Shown: piece by piece, positions 1 through 4,580 of the stretch | Position numbering within the stretch: the first letter of the stretch is position 1 | Layout: every line of letters starts with the position of its first letter | Source of the DNA: a virus | Taxonomy: Duplodnaviria; Heunggongvirae; Uroviricota; Caudoviricetes | Virus record (IMG/VR): IMGVR_UViG_2541047425_000011 | Length of the DNA: 4,793 nt | Strand: one strand, 5' to 3' | Made by a program: the position numbers and the translations under genes | Notes under the pieces: model-generated | Told to the model about the DNA's origin: nothing | The model's database searches: none | Seen by the model: the letters and a program-made list of their open reading frames with translations, nothing else

Positions 1-2015
1 CCGGTCAGCATCGCCGCCATATTCTGTGCAATACCGTCAAAGGTCTGCGTGGCAGCACTTTTAACCTGCGAAAAACTGTCCGTCGCACTTTCCGCCCACT
101 CGCCCCAGCCGGACTTCAGCCCGGCCATCCAGCTTCCACGAAGCTGCTCCTCCGCAGACCTGGTGTTCTTCAGTGCCGATGTGGCCTTCGCCAGCGCAGC
201 CGGATTATCACCGTACACGTCCCGAAGACGCTGCGCTTCAGACTCCCGCTGCGCCTGACGGTCAGTGAGACCGCGGGCTTTTGCGCTGATGGCGGCCTGC
301 TTCGCGCTCTGCTGCTCTTCAAACCGCACCGCCTGCTGTGCCAGCTCATTCAGGCGTTTCTGGTATTCAACCTTGTCGCCCAGCTCAGCCAGCTGGCGTT
401 TGTACTCCAGCGTCTCGTCTTTATGCGCCAGCAGGGATTTTTCCTGCTCAGATAACTGCCGTTTCGTGGCAGCCTCTTTCAGGACCGCATACTGATTTTC
501 CGCTTTCCATAAATCGCGACGCTGCTGGCTGATTTTCTCATTCGCACCGCTGTGTTTTTCCAGCGTCCTGAGCTCGGTTTCAAGCGCCAGCAGGGCAGCA
601 TGCGCCTGGTCTTCCTGACGATCGCCCGCAGACACCTTCACGCCGGACTGTTTCGGCTTTTTCAGCGTCGCTTCATAGTCCTTTTTCGCCGCCGCCATCA
701 GCGTGTTGTAATCTGCCTGCAGGATTTTCCCGTCTTTCAGTGCCTTATTCAGTTCTTCCTGACGGGCGGTATATTTCTCCAGCGGCGTCTGCAGGCGTTC
801 GTAAGCCTTCTGCGCCTCTTCGGTATATTTCAGCCGTGACGCTTCGGTATCGCTCTGTTGCTGCGCATTTTTGTCCTGTTGACTCTGCTGCTCAGCCTTC
901 TTTCGGGCGGCTTCAAGCGCAAGACGGGCCTTTTCACGATCATCCCAGTAACGCGCCCGCGCTTCATCGTTAACAAAATAATCATCCTTGCGCAGATTCC
1001 AGATATCGTCCGCTTTCTTAAACGCGGCCTCTGCCTTAATCAGCATCTCCTGCGCGGTATCAGGACGACCAATATCCAGCACCGCATCCCACATGGATTT
1101 GAATGCCCGTGCTGTCCTGTCTGCCCAGGTTTCCAGCGTGCCCATGTTCTCTTTCAGGCGGCGGGTCTGGTCATCAAACCCTTTCGTCGCGGCCTCGTTC
1201 GCCGCCTGCAATGCCCCGGCTTCTTCGCCGGAACGCTGCAACTGAGCAACATACGCAATCTGCTCCGCCGTCACGTTATGGAACTGGCGCGCCATCGCTG
1301 TCAGCCCCGACGTCGGGTCAGTGGTCAGCTTCCCGAAGGCTTCAGCGACCTTGTCCACCTCCACGCCTGATGCAGAGGAGAAACGCGCCACACTCTGGCT
1401 GATGGACGCAATCTGAGCCTCACCGCTTACCCCCGCCTTAACCAGTGCGCTGAGTGACTCGCTGGTCTGGTTAAACGTCAGCCCTGCCGCCTGCCCGGCT
1501 CTGGACAGGACCAGCATACGATCTGCCGTCAGCCCGGCCTGATTGCCGGAAAGGACCAGCGTTTTGTTGAAATCGGACAGGGTTGAGTTGCCCTGATACC
1601 AGGCATACGCCAGCGCACCGGTCGCCACCGCCAGCGAGGTGGCCCCCACCATCGGCAGGGTGATCGCACCGGCAAGCCCCCGGAACATGGGGATCATCCC
1701 GCCGAAGGAGTCCTTCACCTGCCCCCCCTGTTGCAGCAGGATCAGCCACGGACTTTGCCCACCTGCAAGCTGCGTGGCCACGTCAGTGAACTGCGCAGGC
1801 AGCATACGCATGGCGGCTTTATACTGCCCGACGGAAATTCCCGCTTTCTGTGCAGCCAGCGCCTGCCGGCTCATCGACTGTTCAACGACTGCCGCTGTTT
1901 TTTTCGCATCACTTTCCGTACCGGAAAAATGACGCCTGACTCTGGCCATCTGCTCGTCAAATCTGGCCGCATCCAGACTTAAATCAACGACCAGATCGCC
2001 TACCGGTTCAGCCAT
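1..2015 (-). CDS. H: Tail tape measure protein, lambda H-like; partial, N-terminal ~671 codons, C-terminal part lies beyond position 1
   Basis: ATG at 2015..2013 with a strong AGGAGG Shine-Dalgarno (plus-strand 2024..2029) 8 nt upstream. I hand-translated the minus strand at 2015..1621 (MAEPVGDLVVDLSLDAARFDEQMARVRRHFSGTESDAKKTAAVVEQSMSRQALAAQKAGISVGQYKAAMRMLPAQFTDVATQLAGGQSPWLILLQQGGQVKDSFGGMIPMFRGLAGAITLPMVGATSLAVA), around 1019..963 (KKADDIWNLRKDDYFVNDE), around 539..483 (EKISQQRRDLWKAENQYAV) and at 59..3 (SAATQTFDGIAQNMAAMLTG). All are in the same frame and match lambda gpH. It is absent from the track only because it has no stop inside the window. Confidence 0.9.
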   Translation of the reverse strand, partial: MAEPVGDLVVDLSLDAARFDEQMARVRRHFSGTESDAKKTAAVVEQSMSRQALAAQKAGISVGQYKAAMRMLPAQFTDVATQLAGGQSPWLILLQQGGQVKDSFGGMIPMFRGLAGAITLPMVGATSLAVATGALAYAWYQGNSTLSDFNKTLVLSGNQAGLTADRMLVLSRAGQAAGLTFNQTSESLSALVKAGVSGEAQIASISQSVARFSSASGVEVDKVAEAFGKLTTDPTSGLTAMARQFHNVTAEQIAYVAQLQRSGEEAGALQAANEAATKGFDDQTRRLKENMGTLETWADRTARAFKSMWDAVLDIGRPDTAQEMLIKAEAAFKKADDIWNLRKDDYFVNDEARARYWDDREKARLALEAARKKAEQQSQQDKNAQQQSDTEASRLKYTEEAQKAYERLQTPLEKYTARQEELNKALKDGKILQADYNTLMAAAKKDYEATLKKPKQSGVKVSAGDRQEDQAHAALLALETELRTLEKHSGANEKISQQRRDLWKAENQYAVLKEAATKRQLSEQEKSLLAHKDETLEYKRQLAELGDKVEYQKRLNELAQQAVRFEEQQSAKQAAISAKARGLTDRQAQRESEAQRLRDVYGDNPAALAKATSALKNTRSAEEQLRGSWMAGLKSGWGEWAESATDSFSQVKSAATQTFDGIAQNMAAMLT

Positions 2016-2846
2016 ACCGGACTCCTCCTGCGATCCCTTCTGATACTGTCATCAGCATTACGTCATCCTCCGTCATGTCCGCCACATCCGGGGAAGCGGG
2101 GATAACTTCATTCCCGTCCGGGCCAAAACGAACGCCTCCAGCAAGCCCTGCCGCTTTCTGCATCAGCACATCATCTTCAGGCTCTTCGTCAGCCTCACGC
2201 CGGTTCAGCAGACTGAAATCCAGCGGATGCATATCCGGATCGCTGAAAAACAGGCTGAGCACGGTGTACGTCAGCCCGGAAAAGTGCATATCCAGCAGAA
2301 CATCATGAAAATAATGGGTACTGTAAAAGCGGTGCCAGTCGGCATACTCCGTGGATGACATCCCGGCAAGCATGGCACGCCAGTCGGGTCGCCCCATCTC
2401 GCGCGCCAGTTTCAGGGCAAAACTCAGCTCACCGTCGAACACTTTCCCGCAGAAACAGGCTCTGCAGGCCCGGCGTCCTCTGCCTGTTCAGGGGCATCAT
2501 TCACCACAAACTCATACATACCGGACAGCCGGTACACCACGTTTTCAGCATGAGAAATTGCCTCCGCGGGCCAGGTGGTAAGCACTTCCTGCTCAATCTG
2601 TTTAACGGCTTCATTCATGGACGGCATCTGCGTCTTCTTCGGATGGTTATGCCACAGGGACATCGCCACCACAAAAGCGCCGGTTCTGATGGCGTCTTCC
2701 ACAGTAAACTTCCGGTTGCTGTCTGACTCCGCCTGTTCTGCCTGCCGTTTCATCAGGGCGAGATGCTCAATACGCTGCAGGGCTGACAGTTCAGAAAGCG
2801 TGACGGTCACGCCGTTATGTTCAAATGATTCGGTTTTCAGGAACAT
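2008..2846 (-). CDS. GT: Tail assembly chaperone G-T fusion, made by programmed -1 ribosomal frameshift at 2448..2442 (about 279 aa)
   Basis: The G frame reads GCG GGA AAG (A-G-K, codons 133-135) and ends 5 codons later. The -1 frame reads GGG AAA GTG TTC GAC… and stays open for 144 more codons (VFDGELSFALKLAREMGRPDWRAMLAGM…GIAGGVRYG) to a TGA at 2010..2008. The T frame has no ATG start with a ribosome-binding site of its own; the track's ORF 2008..2442 begins at GTG, which is the codon reached by the frameshift. This is the arrangement established for lambda G/GT. Confidence 0.88.
2024..2029 (-). promoter_or_regulatory. Shine-Dalgarno (AGGAGG) for H, embedded in the 3' end of the T coding region
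   Basis: Minus strand reads AGGAGG-AGTCCGGT-ATG. The 8-nt spacing to the H start codon is within the usual range. Confidence 0.7.
2424..2846 (-). CDS. G: Tail assembly chaperone, lambda G-like (140 aa)
   Basis: 140-aa minus-strand ORF (MFLKTESFEHNGVTVTLSELSALQRIEHLALMKRQAEQAESD…SAGKCSTVS) recognised as lambda gpG. ATG at 2846..2844 with GGAGAA Shine-Dalgarno 6 nt upstream (plus-strand TTCTCC 2854..2859). Stop TGA at 2426..2424. Confidence 0.93.
   Translation of the reverse strand: MFLKTESFEHNGVTVTLSELSALQRIEHLALMKRQAEQAESDSNRKFTVEDAIRTGAFVVAMSLWHNHPKKTQMPSMNEAVKQIEQEVLTTWPAEAISHAENVVYRLSGMYEFVVNDAPEQAEDAGPAEPVSAGKCSTVS
2442..2448 (-). other. -1 programmed ribosomal frameshift slippery heptamer G GGA AAG (plus-strand CTTTCCC)
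   Basis: Heptamer GGGAAAG read directly on the minus strand at 2448..2442, positioned 5 codons before the G stop and at the entry to the open T frame. It matches the X XXY YYZ slippery-site rule and the known lambda G-T site. Confidence 0.88.
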
Positions 2847-2861
2847 CGCTGATTCTCCGGA

Positions 2862-3602
2862 TTAACTGGCGGTGACGTTGATTTCTGCAACCGCAGCAAA
2901 CTCACCATTACCGGATACGACCGGAATGTTGACCTTGCCTGCAGCAACACCTTTCACGGTGATGGTCATACCACTGACCGACACGGTGGCTTTTGTTTTA
3001 TCCGCAGACACCGCACGGAAGCTCTTGTCGGTTGCGCCTTCCGGCTGGAATGCCACGGTCAGCGTCGTGCTCTGCCCTTTCACCACCGAGGTGCTGGCAG
3101 GCGTCACGGTCATGCCGGTTGCCGCTGTTACCGTGCTGCGATCTTCTGCCATCGACGGACGTCCCACGTTGGTGACTTTCACCGTGCGGGTGATCACTTC
3201 CTTCGCCGTCACCGCCTTACCGATACTGCTGACCCAGCCGCGGAACACATCGACCGTGCCGTTCGGGAAGCGGATTTTATAGGCACGGGTATCACCTTCA
3301 TTAAACCACGCCAGCAGCGCCTGCTGCCCCTGCTCTCCGGGCATCCACGCCAGCGTGAAGCTGGTATCTCCAGCGGATTTCTGCCCCTGTCCGGTCGCGG
3401 CCCAGTCCGCATCTTCATCATCGAGATAACTGTCGTCATAGGACTCAGCGGTCAGTTCGCCGGGCGTCAGGTCTTTAACCTTTGCCAGACGCGACCAGTC
3501 ATTGTCTGAAAGCGGGTTTGCATATGGGTCGCCGTTCCCGTTATAAACCCACAGTGTGGTCCCGGCCCCTTTCACCGGTGCCAGAGGATTTGGTGTTGGC
3601 AT
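2862..3602 (-). CDS. V: Major tail tube protein, lambda V-like (246 aa) with C-terminal Ig-like domain
   Basis: Minus-strand ORF recognised as lambda gpV (…[12 protein letters not shown]…DPYANPLSD…[24 protein letters not shown]…). The track begins the ORF at 3632 ([10 protein letters not shown]…), but that start lies inside U. I place the start at the internal ATG 3602..3600, which has a GAGGA Shine-Dalgarno 4 nt upstream (plus-strand TCCTC 3607..3611) and gives the 246-aa length expected for gpV. Stop TAA at 2864..2862. Confidence 0.9.
2865..3134 (-). other. Ig-like (Big_2-type) C-terminal domain of the V tail tube protein, about residues 157-246
   Basis: The C-terminal ~90 residues ([90 protein letters not shown]) have the alternating T/V/S beta-strand pattern of bacterial Ig-like domains. 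A C-terminal Ig-like domain is established for lambda gpV. Boundaries are approximate. Confidence 0.7.
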
Positions 3603-3609
3603 ATCGTCC

Positions 3610-4005
3610 TCACATTTCATAGGTAATGACATAAGTCAGATCGGCTGAACTCCACAGGCCCGCATCATCGTCGCGCCGGTAGTCATAGCCACTGGCCACC
3701 ATACTGGTGATCAAATCTGATAGTGCCGGGATATCGCTCATCACCGGATAAATCCGGGACTCCATCCACGCATCCAGCTCTGAATCCGGCACCTGAGCAG
3801 GCAGGAAAACTTCGATATGCAGCTCCGCCTGCCAGGTATCGCTGTCCAGCTCTTCGCCCGTGTATTCAGCGCCGGTGAGATAAACGGCAACTGCCGGAAA
3901 ATCCGCCTCATCAAAAACAGCGGGGCGACCATCAAAAAACGTCGCCCCGGTGTCATGCTTCTCCAGTGCATCCAGTACGGCTGCACGGAGTTCAGTATGT
4001 TTCAT
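3610..4005 (-). CDS. U: Tail terminator protein, lambda U-like (131 aa)
   Basis: 131-aa minus-strand ORF ([33 protein letters not shown]...LTYVITYEM) recognised as lambda gpU. Its ATG (4005..4003) overlaps the Z stop in an ATGA arrangement. Stop TGA at 3612..3610. Confidence 0.93.
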
Positions 4006-4580
4006 CGCTTTATTACCATTCTCAGTTGATGCTGCAGCGCATAGCCCAGCTCTTTCGGAAGACGTTCACGCCGTATCCGCTCAATATTCTGTTTAAACGC
4101 CGTGGTCAGCGGCACCGCCATCGGGATTTTCACCACATCAATGGGGTAACGGTTTTTCCCGGCCACACGCTGCATGACATGCCACCGGCCATTTTTCAGT
4201 TGCTGAATAAACGCGCCGGGAATACGACGGTTTCCCACCACAAGCACGCTGCCGCCACCTTTCAGGGATGAACGCTGCCCCTTTTTACGACGCCTGCGTC
4301 GGGACAGGACAACCCGCGCGTTACCCAGCTTGATTACGGGCAAATCCCCCCGGTTAACCTTGATTCTGGCCTGCGGATTTTTAACCGTGGCCCTTTTCAG
4401 CCTGGCCCTTTCCTTTACCAGTTTCCGGCGTACTCTTGTCTCACGGGCAACCTGTGACGCCGACTGCGATATCGCGGATGAAGCAACGCGGTTAATGGCC
4501 ATTGCTGACGCACCAGGCACCGCCGTTTTGCTGATACGACTGAGGTTTTCAACGGCCTGCTCAAGACCTTTTATGGCCAT
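4002..4580 (-). CDS. Z: Tail completion protein, lambda Z-like (192 aa)
   Basis: 192-aa minus-strand ORF (MAIKGLEQAVENLSRISKTAV...[15 protein letters not shown]) recognised as lambda gpZ. ATG at 4580..4578 is preceded by a G-rich Shine-Dalgarno (GGGGGG, plus-strand 4585..4590 as CCCCCC). Stop TGA at 4004..4002 overlaps the U start. Confidence 0.93.
   Translation of the reverse strand: MAIKGLEQAVENLSRISKTAVPGASAMAINRVASSAISQSASQVARETRVRRKLVKERARLKRATVKNPQARIKVNRGDLPVIKLGNARVVLSRRRRRKKGQRSSLKGGGSVLVVGNRRIPGAFIQQLKNGRWHVMQRVAGKNRYPIDVVKIPMAVPLTTAFKQNIERIRRERLPKELGYALQHQLRMVIKR

What the first reader, a model, noticed from the sequence alone, without database searches (positions are those of the whole stretch)
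2430..2460. Programmed -1 ribosomal frameshift joining G to T (slippery heptamer GGGAAAG)
The minus strand carries G GGA AAG at 2448..2442. In the zero frame G ends 5 codons later at a TGA (2426..2424). In the -1 frame an open frame of 144 codons continues to 2008 with no ATG start or ribosome-binding site of its own. In lambda this low-frequency shift makes the G-T tail-assembly chaperone, and the G:GT ratio is needed for correct tail assembly around the tape measure. I see no obvious strong downstream hairpin or pseudoknot, which fits the lambda site reportedly working without a strong stimulatory structure. This is conserved, well-described biology and not novel, but it is the one non-standard decoding event here and is easily mis-annotated as two genes.
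Basis: partly seen in the sequence, partly recalled or inferred. Interest (0 to 1): 0.5.

Follow-up and report, generated by a model that had tools for sequence, protein, structure and literature searches.

The report
Lambda G–T tail chaperone frameshift site

Summary
GGGAAAG lies at 2448..2442 on the minus strand, in the G_GGA_AAG phase of gene G. G stops at TGA 2426..2424, five codons later. The -1 frame runs 144 codons to 2008.

The window is the Z-U-V-G-T-H tail operon of a lambda-like phage. It is 98.1% identical to lambda over G-T, and identical from 17 nt upstream to 40 nt downstream of the heptamer. G matches Pfam Phage_TAC_2 and T matches Phage_tail_T.

About 75 relatives keep an N_NNA_AAG slip site at the same spot, with heptamers GGGAAAG, AAAAAAG, GGAAAAG or GGTAAAG. 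The junction GTG and the first ATG of the T frame are not conserved. T therefore has no start of its own, and the frameshift reading stands. It is already known (Levin 1993; Xu 2004-2014).

One sub-claim fails. A 71-nt Y-shaped RNA structure (2434..2364, -36.4 kcal/mol, z about -5) begins 7 nt after the heptamer. It is kept in 23 of 27 relatives and folds better than synonymous recodings. The bare heptamer gives only 0.28% shifting in E. coli reporters against about 4% in lambda, so a moderate stimulator is plausible. This is unproven.

The parts
2862..3602 (-). Major tail tube gene V (upstream neighbour). The mechanical ORF extends to an in-frame ATG at 3632.
   Evidence: Pfam Phage_TTP_12 at 2.7e-70 plus Big_2. 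Lambda V is annotated at the equivalent of 3602. The SD match is better for 3602 than for 3632.
2424..2846 (-). Gene G, the zero-frame tail assembly chaperone gpG (140 aa), ending at TGA 2426..2424.
   Evidence: ORF list. Pfam PF06894 Phage_TAC_2 at 1.8e-59. 98.1% identity to lambda G-T. Annotated as G in lambda.
2442..2448 (-). Slippery heptamer G_GGA_AAG, encoding Gly134-Lys135 of G. tRNA-Gly and tRNA-Lys re-pair to GGG_AAA.
   Evidence: Sequence. Single match in the window. In phase. Identical to the lambda site. Positional conservation as GGGAAAG, AAAAAAG, GGAAAAG or GGTAAAG in relatives.
2435..2441 (-). 7-nt spacer (UGUUCGA) between the heptamer and the first pair of the downstream structure.
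   Evidence: Folds.
2364..2434 (-). Candidate frameshift-stimulatory RNA, a Y-shaped element. The outer 8-bp helix pairs 2434-2427 with 2371-2364. It encloses a small hairpin and a long, roughly 14-bp interrupted hairpin (2408-2373).
   Evidence: MFE -36.4 kcal/mol, centroid equals MFE, z = -4.98 against dinucleotide shuffles. Top 0.3% of 71-nt windows and 0 of 281 GC-matched windows. About 4th of 53 boundary-optimised local structures. z = -2.8 against synonymous recodings, with the same architecture in 23 of 27 relatives. 90% of cells paired in 66 sequences, with weak covariation. Its function is inferred, not shown.
2008..2442 (-). T segment: the -1 frame, 144 codons plus TGA. It is translated only as the C-terminal part of gpGT, encoded by join(2846..2442, 2442..2008), 279 aa, with base 2442 read twice.
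   Evidence: ORF list. Pfam PF06223 Phage_tail_T at 2.1e-14. Homology starts at the junction and no start codon is conserved. The -1 frame is closed 13 codons upstream of the heptamer.
1..2015 (-). Tape measure gene H (downstream neighbour, runs off the window). Its ATG at 2015..2013 overlaps the end of T, and it lies in the same frame as G.
   Evidence: Pfam TMP_2 at 4.8e-70 and Tape_meas_lam_C. Lambda annotation. Strong SD match of -10.3 kcal/mol.

Best explanation
The window carries the Z-U-V-G-T-H tail operon of a lambda-like phage on its minus strand.

Most ribosomes translating G pass G_GGA_AAG and terminate at the UGA five codons later, giving gpG (140 aa). A few percent behave differently (about 3-4% in lambda). 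With tRNA-Gly on GGA in the P site and tRNA-Lys(mnm5s2UUU) on AAG in the A site, both tRNAs slip back one base to GGG_AAA. The next codon is then GUG (2442..2440). Translation continues for 144 codons in the -1 frame and gives the 279-aa fusion gpGT.

gpG and the G part of gpGT coat the tape-measure protein gpH. The T part recruits the tube protein gpV. The fixed ratio of about 30:1 is needed for correct tail assembly, and neither protein ends up in the virion.

Basis of each step:
- Shown here: the anatomy, the homology and the conservation.
- Taken from the lambda literature: the slippage itself, its rate and the chaperone roles.
- My inference: the 71-nt structured element that starts 7 nt downstream (2434..2364) acts as a moderate stimulator and raises the shift from the level of the bare heptamer to the few-percent level.
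For: Anatomy.

Identity with lambda: 98.1% over G-T. The site and its flanks are identical. Gene order and annotation match lambda.

Domains: Phage_TAC_2 and Phage_tail_T lie between the tube gene (Phage_TTP_12) and the tape measure gene (TMP_2).

Conservation of the slip site:
- 12 phage records.
- 24 species-level genomes: 20 GGAAAAG, 3 GGTAAAG, 1 GGGAAAG.
- 39 distinct IMG/VR sequences: 37 GGAAAAG, 1 GGCAAAG, 1 AGAAAAG.
- A_AAG is invariant in all of them.
- The -1 frame is closed 3-19 codons upstream of the site in the 12 phage records. Start codons in the T frame are not conserved across the relatives compared.

Other points: there is no promoter-like site between G and T. N15 and LLS records annotate the homologous site as a -1 slippery sequence.

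Literature: PMC5009743, PMC3296357 and PMC7618472 describe lambda G/GT at G_GGA_AAG, with about 96% of ribosomes staying in the zero frame and a product ratio of about 30:1.

For the stimulator:
- Stability.
- Pairing is kept in 90% of cells. Pair 16-84 covaries (AU 54, GC 8).
- G_GGA_AAG gives 0.277% shifting without a stimulator, 3.8% with the IS911 stimulators and 43% with the IS3 pseudoknot (Sharma 2014 supplement).
Against: No experiment was done on this sequence. The frameshift is inferred by near-identity to lambda.

Against the stimulator:
- Covariation is weak and mostly clade-linked.
- Synonymous diversity in the region is only slightly lower than in the rest of T (0.35 against 0.42, p = 0.09).
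- The underlying peptide LAREMGRPDWRAMLAG is itself highly conserved.
- Three other coding-region structures in the window score as well or better.
- The Pantoea and Proteus relatives lack the structure.
- An earlier in-silico screen found a 54-nt hairpin with a 7-nt spacer in 51% of gpG-cluster members and judged it no more stable than the local average (Sharma 2014 Table S8).
- I could not read Levin 1993 to see what was tested downstream.
Confidence: 0.96

Rival explanations
1. T is an independent gene initiated at GTG 2442, or at the first ATG of the T frame at 2397. This is how GenBank J02459, PGAP and many phage records annotate it. Under this reading the heptamer is coincidental.
For: The ORF finder lists a 144-aa GTG ORF at 2008..2442. 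Separate T CDSs are annotated in lambda, PhiR26_1 and RefSeq E. coli. Later-ATG versions appear in PhiR12_2 and VT1-Sakai. The heptamer alone is not rarer than chance.
Against: The junction codon is GTC, GCA or GCC in relatives, and M16 is Phe in most. Even so, homology (xFxGELxF...) begins right at the junction. The SD match is weak and abuts the GTG (-4.3 kcal/mol), and it is -1.8 for ATG 2397. The slip site is conserved in position while the G tail around it diverges. The literature reports gpGT, not free gpT, as the product.
Confidence: 0.02
2. The shift is real but unstimulated. The heptamer and its immediate context alone set the rate. The 71-nt downstream fold is a by-product of a GC-rich, protein-constrained sequence.
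For: Covariation is weak. Reduction in synonymous diversity is not significant. Other equally strong coding-region folds exist in the window. The structure is absent in the Pantoea and Proteus homologues, which keep the A_AAG site. Sharma 2014 judged the gpG-cluster hairpin near the local average.
Against: The bare G_GGA_AAG gives 0.28% in E. coli reporters against about 4% for lambda G-T. The fold starts at the canonical 7-nt spacing. With about 4 such strong elements in 4.8 kb, the chance that one starts 5-9 nt after the heptamer is about 0.4% (my estimate). The native sequence folds better than synonymous recodings in 23 of 27 relatives, and the target is in the top 2% of 174 coding windows.
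Confidence: 0.5
3. The G-T fusion arises by transcriptional slippage of RNA polymerase, or the frame change is a sequencing error or pseudogene, rather than by ribosomal slippage.
For: None specific. Relatives with AAAAAAG have a 6-A run.
Against: The window has runs of only 3 G and 3 A, too short for RNA polymerase slippage by established knowledge. The two-frame arrangement is identical in more than 100 phage records and in 4029 of 5426 complete E. coli genomes, so it is not an error. Changes in tRNA-Lys modification alter the G:GT ratio, which points to the ribosome (PMC3296357).
Confidence: 0.01

Closest known systems
Bacteriophage lambda G / G-T programmed -1 frameshift (Levin, Hendrix & Casjens 1993; Xu, Hendrix & Duda 2004, 2013, 2014)
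   Same: Same genes, same order (V-G-T-H) and same heptamer G_GGA_AAG. The zero-frame stop is the same 5 codons downstream, the -1 extension is the same 144 codons, and the sequence is identical from -17 to +40 nt around the site.
   Different: About 1.9% substitutions over G-T and about 5% over the whole window against the best phage records. Two changes lie in the gpG tail (NNAPEQTED becomes NDAPEQAED). Within the 71-nt element there is one change, C2401 where lambda has T. It turns a G-U pair into G-C, giving -36.4 against -34.8 kcal/mol.
N15 genes 14/15 and the mEp213/LLS-type tail chaperones (slip site G_GAA_AAG)
   Same: Homologous T domain (53-62% identity). The slip site sits at the same alignment position. 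The zero-frame stop is usually 5 codons later. The downstream Y-shaped fold has the same architecture.
   Different: The heptamer is not a strict X_XXY_YYZ, because P-site GAA re-pairs imperfectly to GGA. The G proteins are highly diverged, and T is shorter at 113-119 aa.
Stx-phage / O157 prophage tail assembly chaperone (VT1-Sakai; ECs1801 cluster, A_AAA_AAG)
   Same: Same G/T architecture. The T N-terminus is 71-74% identical. The same inner hairpin and outer helix lie downstream. It is listed as a true -1 PRF case in Sharma 2014.
   Different: The heptamer is A_AAA_AAG. The G tail differs (…TSKKHSKAS). Some T frames are truncated to 117 codons.
Stimulated bacterial -1 PRF signals (IS911, IS3, dnaX)
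   Same: An A_AAG-type heptamer decoded by shift-prone tRNA-Lys(UUU). A structured element lies 5-9 nt downstream. The IS911-level stimulators give 3.8% on G_GGA_AAG, close to lambda's rate.
   Different: There is no SD-like element 6-17 nt upstream here (sequence; Sharma Table S8). The candidate stimulator is a three-way junction, not a simple stem-loop or pseudoknot, and it is untested.

Membership tests
Lambda-type tail assembly chaperone G/GT -1 PRF (Xu et al. 2004 class) | Two overlapping ORFs located between the major tail (tube) gene and the tape measure gene | tested here: met
   V (Phage_TTP_12), then G, then T, then H (TMP_2) on the minus strand. The order is the same as in lambda.
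Lambda-type tail assembly chaperone G/GT -1 PRF (Xu et al. 2004 class) | [quoted passage not shown] | tested here: met
   G_GGA_AAG at 2448..2442. The -1 frame is open from 13 codons upstream, and the zero-frame stop is 5 codons downstream. It is the only in-phase heptamer in that stretch.
Lambda-type tail assembly chaperone G/GT -1 PRF (Xu et al. 2004 class) | The downstream ORF lies in the -1 frame and lacks a conserved start codon or RBS of its own | tested here: met
   The junction GTG and M16 are not conserved in relatives. The SD match is weak and mis-spaced. There is no promoter-like site.
Lambda-type tail assembly chaperone G/GT -1 PRF (Xu et al. 2004 class) | Sequence homology to gpG and gpT | tested here: met
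   PF06894 at 1.8e-59 and PF06223 at 2.1e-14. 98.1% DNA identity to lambda.
Lambda-type tail assembly chaperone G/GT -1 PRF (Xu et al. 2004 class) | Slip site conserved in position among homologues despite divergence of the flanking protein sequence | tested here: met
   The sample is 12 phage records, 24 species-level genomes and 39 distinct IMG/VR sequences. All have N_NNA_AAG at the same position.
Lambda-type tail assembly chaperone G/GT -1 PRF (Xu et al. 2004 class) | The fusion protein is actually made at a low fixed ratio (about 3-4%) and is required for tail assembly | not testable with these tools
   Known for lambda from the literature only (PMC5009743, PMC3296357). It is inferred here from sequence identity at the site.
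-1 PRF signals with a downstream RNA stimulator (IS911 / IS3 / dnaX type) | Stable structure beginning 5-9 nt 3' of the heptamer | tested here: met
   7-nt spacer and a 71-nt element of -36.4 kcal/mol with z = -4.98. Top 0.3% of 71-nt windows. About 4th of 53 local structures.
-1 PRF signals with a downstream RNA stimulator (IS911 / IS3 / dnaX type) | Structure maintained by selection, shown by covariation or synonymous-site constraint | tested here: inconclusive
   90% of cells are paired. There is one clear covarying pair (16-84), and wobble-compatible third-position changes at pairs 18-82, 45-72 and 48-69. The native sequence folds better than recodings in 23 of 27 relatives. Synonymous diversity gives p = 0.09, and the protein constraint is strong.
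-1 PRF signals with a downstream RNA stimulator (IS911 / IS3 / dnaX type) | SD-like stimulator 6-17 nt upstream of the heptamer | tested here: not met
   The 12 nt at 2464..2453 read CAGAGCCTGTTT and contain no GAGG, GGAG, AGGA or GGNGG. This agrees with the absence of an SD for cluster G_GGA_AAG_4 in Sharma 2014 Table S8.
-1 PRF signals with a downstream RNA stimulator (IS911 / IS3 / dnaX type) | Mutating the structure lowers frameshifting and compensatory changes restore it | not testable with these tools
   Needs reporter assays. No paper held in the library reports this for lambda G-T. Levin 1993 and Xu 2013/2014 could not be read.

The most novel reading that the evidence does not exclude
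The lambda-type G/GT frameshift is not a bare-heptamer event. A Y-shaped (three-way-junction) mRNA structure starts 7 nt downstream (2434..2364). It is shared by the GGGAAAG, AAAAAAG and GGAAAAG clades of enterobacterial lambdoid, N15-like and mEp213/LLS-like phages. On this reading it is the stimulator that lifts shifting from about 0.3% to about 4% and so helps set the G:GT ratio. It would have been overlooked because it is not a simple hairpin or pseudoknot and lies inside a conserved peptide-coding stretch.
Probability: 0.4. Interest if true: 0.35.

Novelty: already known. Interest (0 to 1): 0.15.

Why it matters
The site is the founding example of the conserved tail-chaperone frameshift of long-tailed phages, so finding it here adds nothing new biologically.

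Its practical value is for annotation. In most public records retrieved, including lambda J02459 and RefSeq PGAP, G and T are given as two separate CDSs. The correct annotation is G plus a joined GT product.

The only point of wider interest is the downstream RNA structure. If it is a real stimulator, it would explain how a heptamer that shifts at 0.28% on its own reaches the roughly 4% that tail assembly needs. It would also give a second handle, besides tRNA-Lys thiolation, on the G:GT ratio.

Tried and rejected
1. Ribosome collision with a ribosome paused on the conserved UGA as stimulator. The A-site-to-A-site spacing here is 6 codons. The measured optimum is 8-10 codons, and 5 codons is baseline (PMC6815119). 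The conserved GAGCTGA is explained by the conserved Glu-Leu of T.

2. Upstream SD-like stimulator. No such motif is present.

3. Rfam. There is no family match near the site. The only hit is a chance miRNA match at E = 0.29.

4. Solved structures of gpG/gpGT by sequence. None were found at E <= 0.01.

5. Internal promoter for T. None was found.

6. First IMG/VR scan. All 80 loci were about 99% identical to the query and useless for covariation. It was repeated with an N15-type query.

7. A 62-nt downstream fold is unremarkable (z = +0.57). The structure only appears once the 3' arm at 2371..2364 is included.

8. Reading Levin 1993 and Xu 2013/2014. These papers are not held. What was tested downstream of the lambda site is therefore unknown to me. 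My recollection that a 3' region modestly affected the rate is unverified.

9. Other in-phase heptamers are not credible recoding sites. They are Z AAAGGGG and GGGAAAC, V AAACCCG and H GGGGGGG. They lie mid-gene, lead into short -1 ORFs, and I know of no evidence for shifting at them.

Full report
**What is in the window.** All long ORFs with protein-family support lie on the minus strand. They are:
- Z (4580..4002, Pfam Minor_tail_Z)
- U (4005..3610, Phage_tail_U)
- V (3602..2862, Phage_TTP_12 plus Big_2)
- G (2846..2424, Phage_TAC_2, E = 1.8e-59)
- an overlapping ORF in the -1 frame (2442..2008, Phage_tail_T, E = 2.1e-14)
- the 5' two-thirds of the tape measure gene H (2015..1, TMP_2)

This is the lambda tail operon. 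The G-T stretch is 98.1% identical to lambda J02459 and 99.6% identical to phage PhiR26_1. The whole window is 95-96% identical to the best phage records. Related copies occur in 4029 of 5426 complete E. coli genomes.

**Checking the observation.** GGGAAAG is at 2448..2442 on the minus strand. Counting from the G start at 2846, it falls as G_GGA_AAG. The zero frame then reads Cys-Ser-Thr-Val-Ser-stop, with TGA at 2426..2424. From base 2442 the -1 frame reads VFDGELSFALK... for 144 codons to the TGA at 2010..2008. The fusion would be 279 aa.

The heptamer alone is not statistically unusual. Its expected count is 0.81 per window, and in-phase X_XXY_YYZ heptamers occur at 5 of 1517 codon positions. 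What matters is its place. It is the only such heptamer in the roughly 20-codon stretch where a -1 shift would join the two open frames.

**Is it the lambda frameshift?** The window is base-for-base identical to lambda from 17 nt upstream to 40 nt downstream of the heptamer. The lambda event is established experimentally. According to reviews and primary papers I could read:
- Ribosomes shift -1 at G_GGA_AAG in about 4% of passages.
- This gives gpG and gpGT at about 30:1.
- The ratio is needed for tail assembly.
- Thiolation of tRNA-Lys(UUU) tunes the rate.

These points come from PMC5009743, PMC3296357 and PMC7618472, all citing Levin 1993 and Xu 2004/2013/2014.

**Comparative evidence.** I compared three sets of relatives:
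- 12 annotated phage records
- 24 diverged loci from one-genome-per-species bacterial assemblies
- 39 distinct IMG/VR sequences

The alignment position of the heptamer always carries N_NNA_AAG. In the lambda-like phages it is GGGAAAG. In Stx-phage types it is AAAAAAG. In the N15 and mEp213/LLS types, and in most Enterobacter, Citrobacter and Kluyvera prophages, it is GGAAAAG. In Pantoea it is GGTAAAG.

The zero-frame stop follows after 5 codons in most relatives, and after 0-1 codons in a few. In the 12 phage records the -1 frame is closed 3-19 codons upstream.

The codon at the junction is GTG only in the lambda-like group. Elsewhere it is GTC, GCA or GCC. The first ATG of the T frame (M16) is Phe in most relatives. 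T-domain homology (xFxGELxF, LAREMGRPDWRAMLAGM) nevertheless starts at the junction.

The anti-SD complementarity before GTG 2442 is weak and abuts the codon (-4.3 kcal/mol). For comparison it is -6.6 for G, -10.3 for H and -11.3 for Z. No promoter-like site lies between G and T.

Independent initiation of T is therefore very unlikely. Transcriptional slippage is implausible on runs of three bases.

**Annotation.** Lambda J02459, PhiR26_1 and RefSeq PGAP give G and T as separate CDSs. PhiR12_2 and VT1-Sakai start T at a later ATG. Only LLS (joined CDS) and N15 (misc_feature) mark the slippage.

**The downstream RNA.** Folding the 102 nt after the heptamer gives -42.4 kcal/mol (z = -2.2). The core is a 71-nt Y-shaped element, 2434..2364, which starts after a 7-nt spacer. 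Its outer 8-bp helix (2434-2427 with 2371-2364) encloses a small hairpin and a long interrupted hairpin.

Stability of the 71-nt element:
- On its own it folds at -36.4 kcal/mol, the centroid equals the MFE, and z = -4.98 (0 of 200 dinucleotide shuffles).
- It is in the top 0.3% of all 71-nt windows of this mRNA strand, and no GC-matched window of 281 is as stable.
- Those comparisons favour the target, because I chose its boundaries. Against 52 non-overlapping local structures with optimised boundaries it ranks about 4th.
- With about four such elements in 4.8 kb, the chance that one starts 5-9 nt after the heptamer is roughly 0.4% (my estimate).

Conservation of the fold:
- The same architecture is the MFE fold in 23 of 27 relatives across all three heptamer clades.
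- In those 23 the native sequence is more stable than recodings that keep the protein (z from -0.7 to -3.6, most below -2).
- As a control, 174 coding windows from this window give mean z -0.45 with sd 0.98, and 1.1% reach the target's value.
- In 66 distinct sequences 90% of cells are paired. Pair 16-84 covaries (AU 54, GC 8). Third-position changes at pairs 18-82, 45-72 and 48-69 are all wobble-compatible.

Evidence against a selected structure:
- Covariation is sparse and clade-linked.
- Synonymous diversity is only slightly reduced (0.35 against 0.42, p = 0.09).
- The encoded peptide is itself highly conserved.
- The Pantoea and Proteus relatives lack the fold.
- Sharma et al. 2014 recorded a 54-nt hairpin with a 7-nt spacer in 51% of their gpG cluster and rated it no better than the local average (Table S8).

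One quantitative argument favours a stimulator. In their E. coli reporters G_GGA_AAG gives 0.277% shifting with no stimulator, 3.80% with the moderate IS911 stimulators and 43% with the IS3 pseudoknot. Lambda's about 4% matches the moderately stimulated level, not the bare level. No SD-like element lies upstream.

I put the stimulator reading at about 0.4-0.5. It is an inference and does not affect the main verdict.

**Rejected ideas.** Collision with a ribosome paused at the nearby UGA does not fit. The spacing is 6 codons, whereas stimulation peaks at 8-10 codons (PMC6815119). Rfam has nothing at the site. No solved structure matches gpGT by sequence.

**Verdict.** The feature is the already-known lambda G/GT programmed -1 frameshift in a lambda-like phage or prophage. 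Novelty: already known. Interest: low. The one addition is a candidate downstream stimulatory structure that deserves a simple reporter test.

Noticed in passing
L095-L109, L122, L128, L133 (genome-contig hits): DNA 98-100% identical to lambda G-T sits on short or roughly 1x-coverage contigs of assemblies labelled Neobacillus, Oceanobacillus, Kitasatospora, Chromatium, Shewanella, Leeuwenhoekiella, Tardiphaga, Paenibacillus, Enterococcus, Marinifilum, Pseudoxanthomonas, Psychrobacter and others. This looks like lambda control or ladder DNA contaminating public genome assemblies.
   Followed up: no
H74-H77 (E. coli O157:H7 F6294, ERL05-0623, strains 105 and 108): The homologous Z-to-H stretch is split into two pieces spanning about 7.2 kb instead of 4.8 kb. 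The features annotated under the match include an ltrA group II intron reverse transcriptase/maturase, so a group II intron appears to have been inserted within this tail-gene stretch, possibly in the tape-measure gene.
   Followed up: no
window 1728..1722 (-), in H; L001 3623-3629: There is an in-phase run of seven G (G_GGG_GGG) in the tape measure gene, and the -1 frame stays open for 83 codons. The same run is present in lambda. The count is not above chance, and I know of no evidence that it is used.
   Followed up: partly
window 3632..3602 (-): The V ORF can be extended 10 codons upstream to an ATG at 3632 (256 aa). Lambda V is annotated from the equivalent of 3602 (246 aa). The anti-SD match favours 3602 (-5.9 against -2.2 kcal/mol). 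The lambda record's label 'V (tail component;256)' disagrees with its own 741-nt CDS.
   Followed up: partly
window 2011..1936 (-), 1255..1196 (-), 2939..2895 (-), 2304..2226 (-): These other local mRNA structures have z-scores from -4 to -5.2. One starts right at the T-stop/H-start overlap (2011..1936). Windows of T starting at 2295 and 2271 also fold much better than synonymous recodings (z -2.8 and -3.6). Their function, if any, is unknown.
   Followed up: no
L132 (Shigella flexneri SFBU0723): The T-frame match is open for only 28 codons and no G ORF precedes it. This prophage copy of G/T looks disrupted.
   Followed up: no
window 2478..2436 (-): An alternative 43-nt local hairpin (-20.3 kcal/mol) pairs upstream G sequence with the heptamer itself. 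It would compete with, or precede, the downstream element. It was not analysed further.
   Followed up: no
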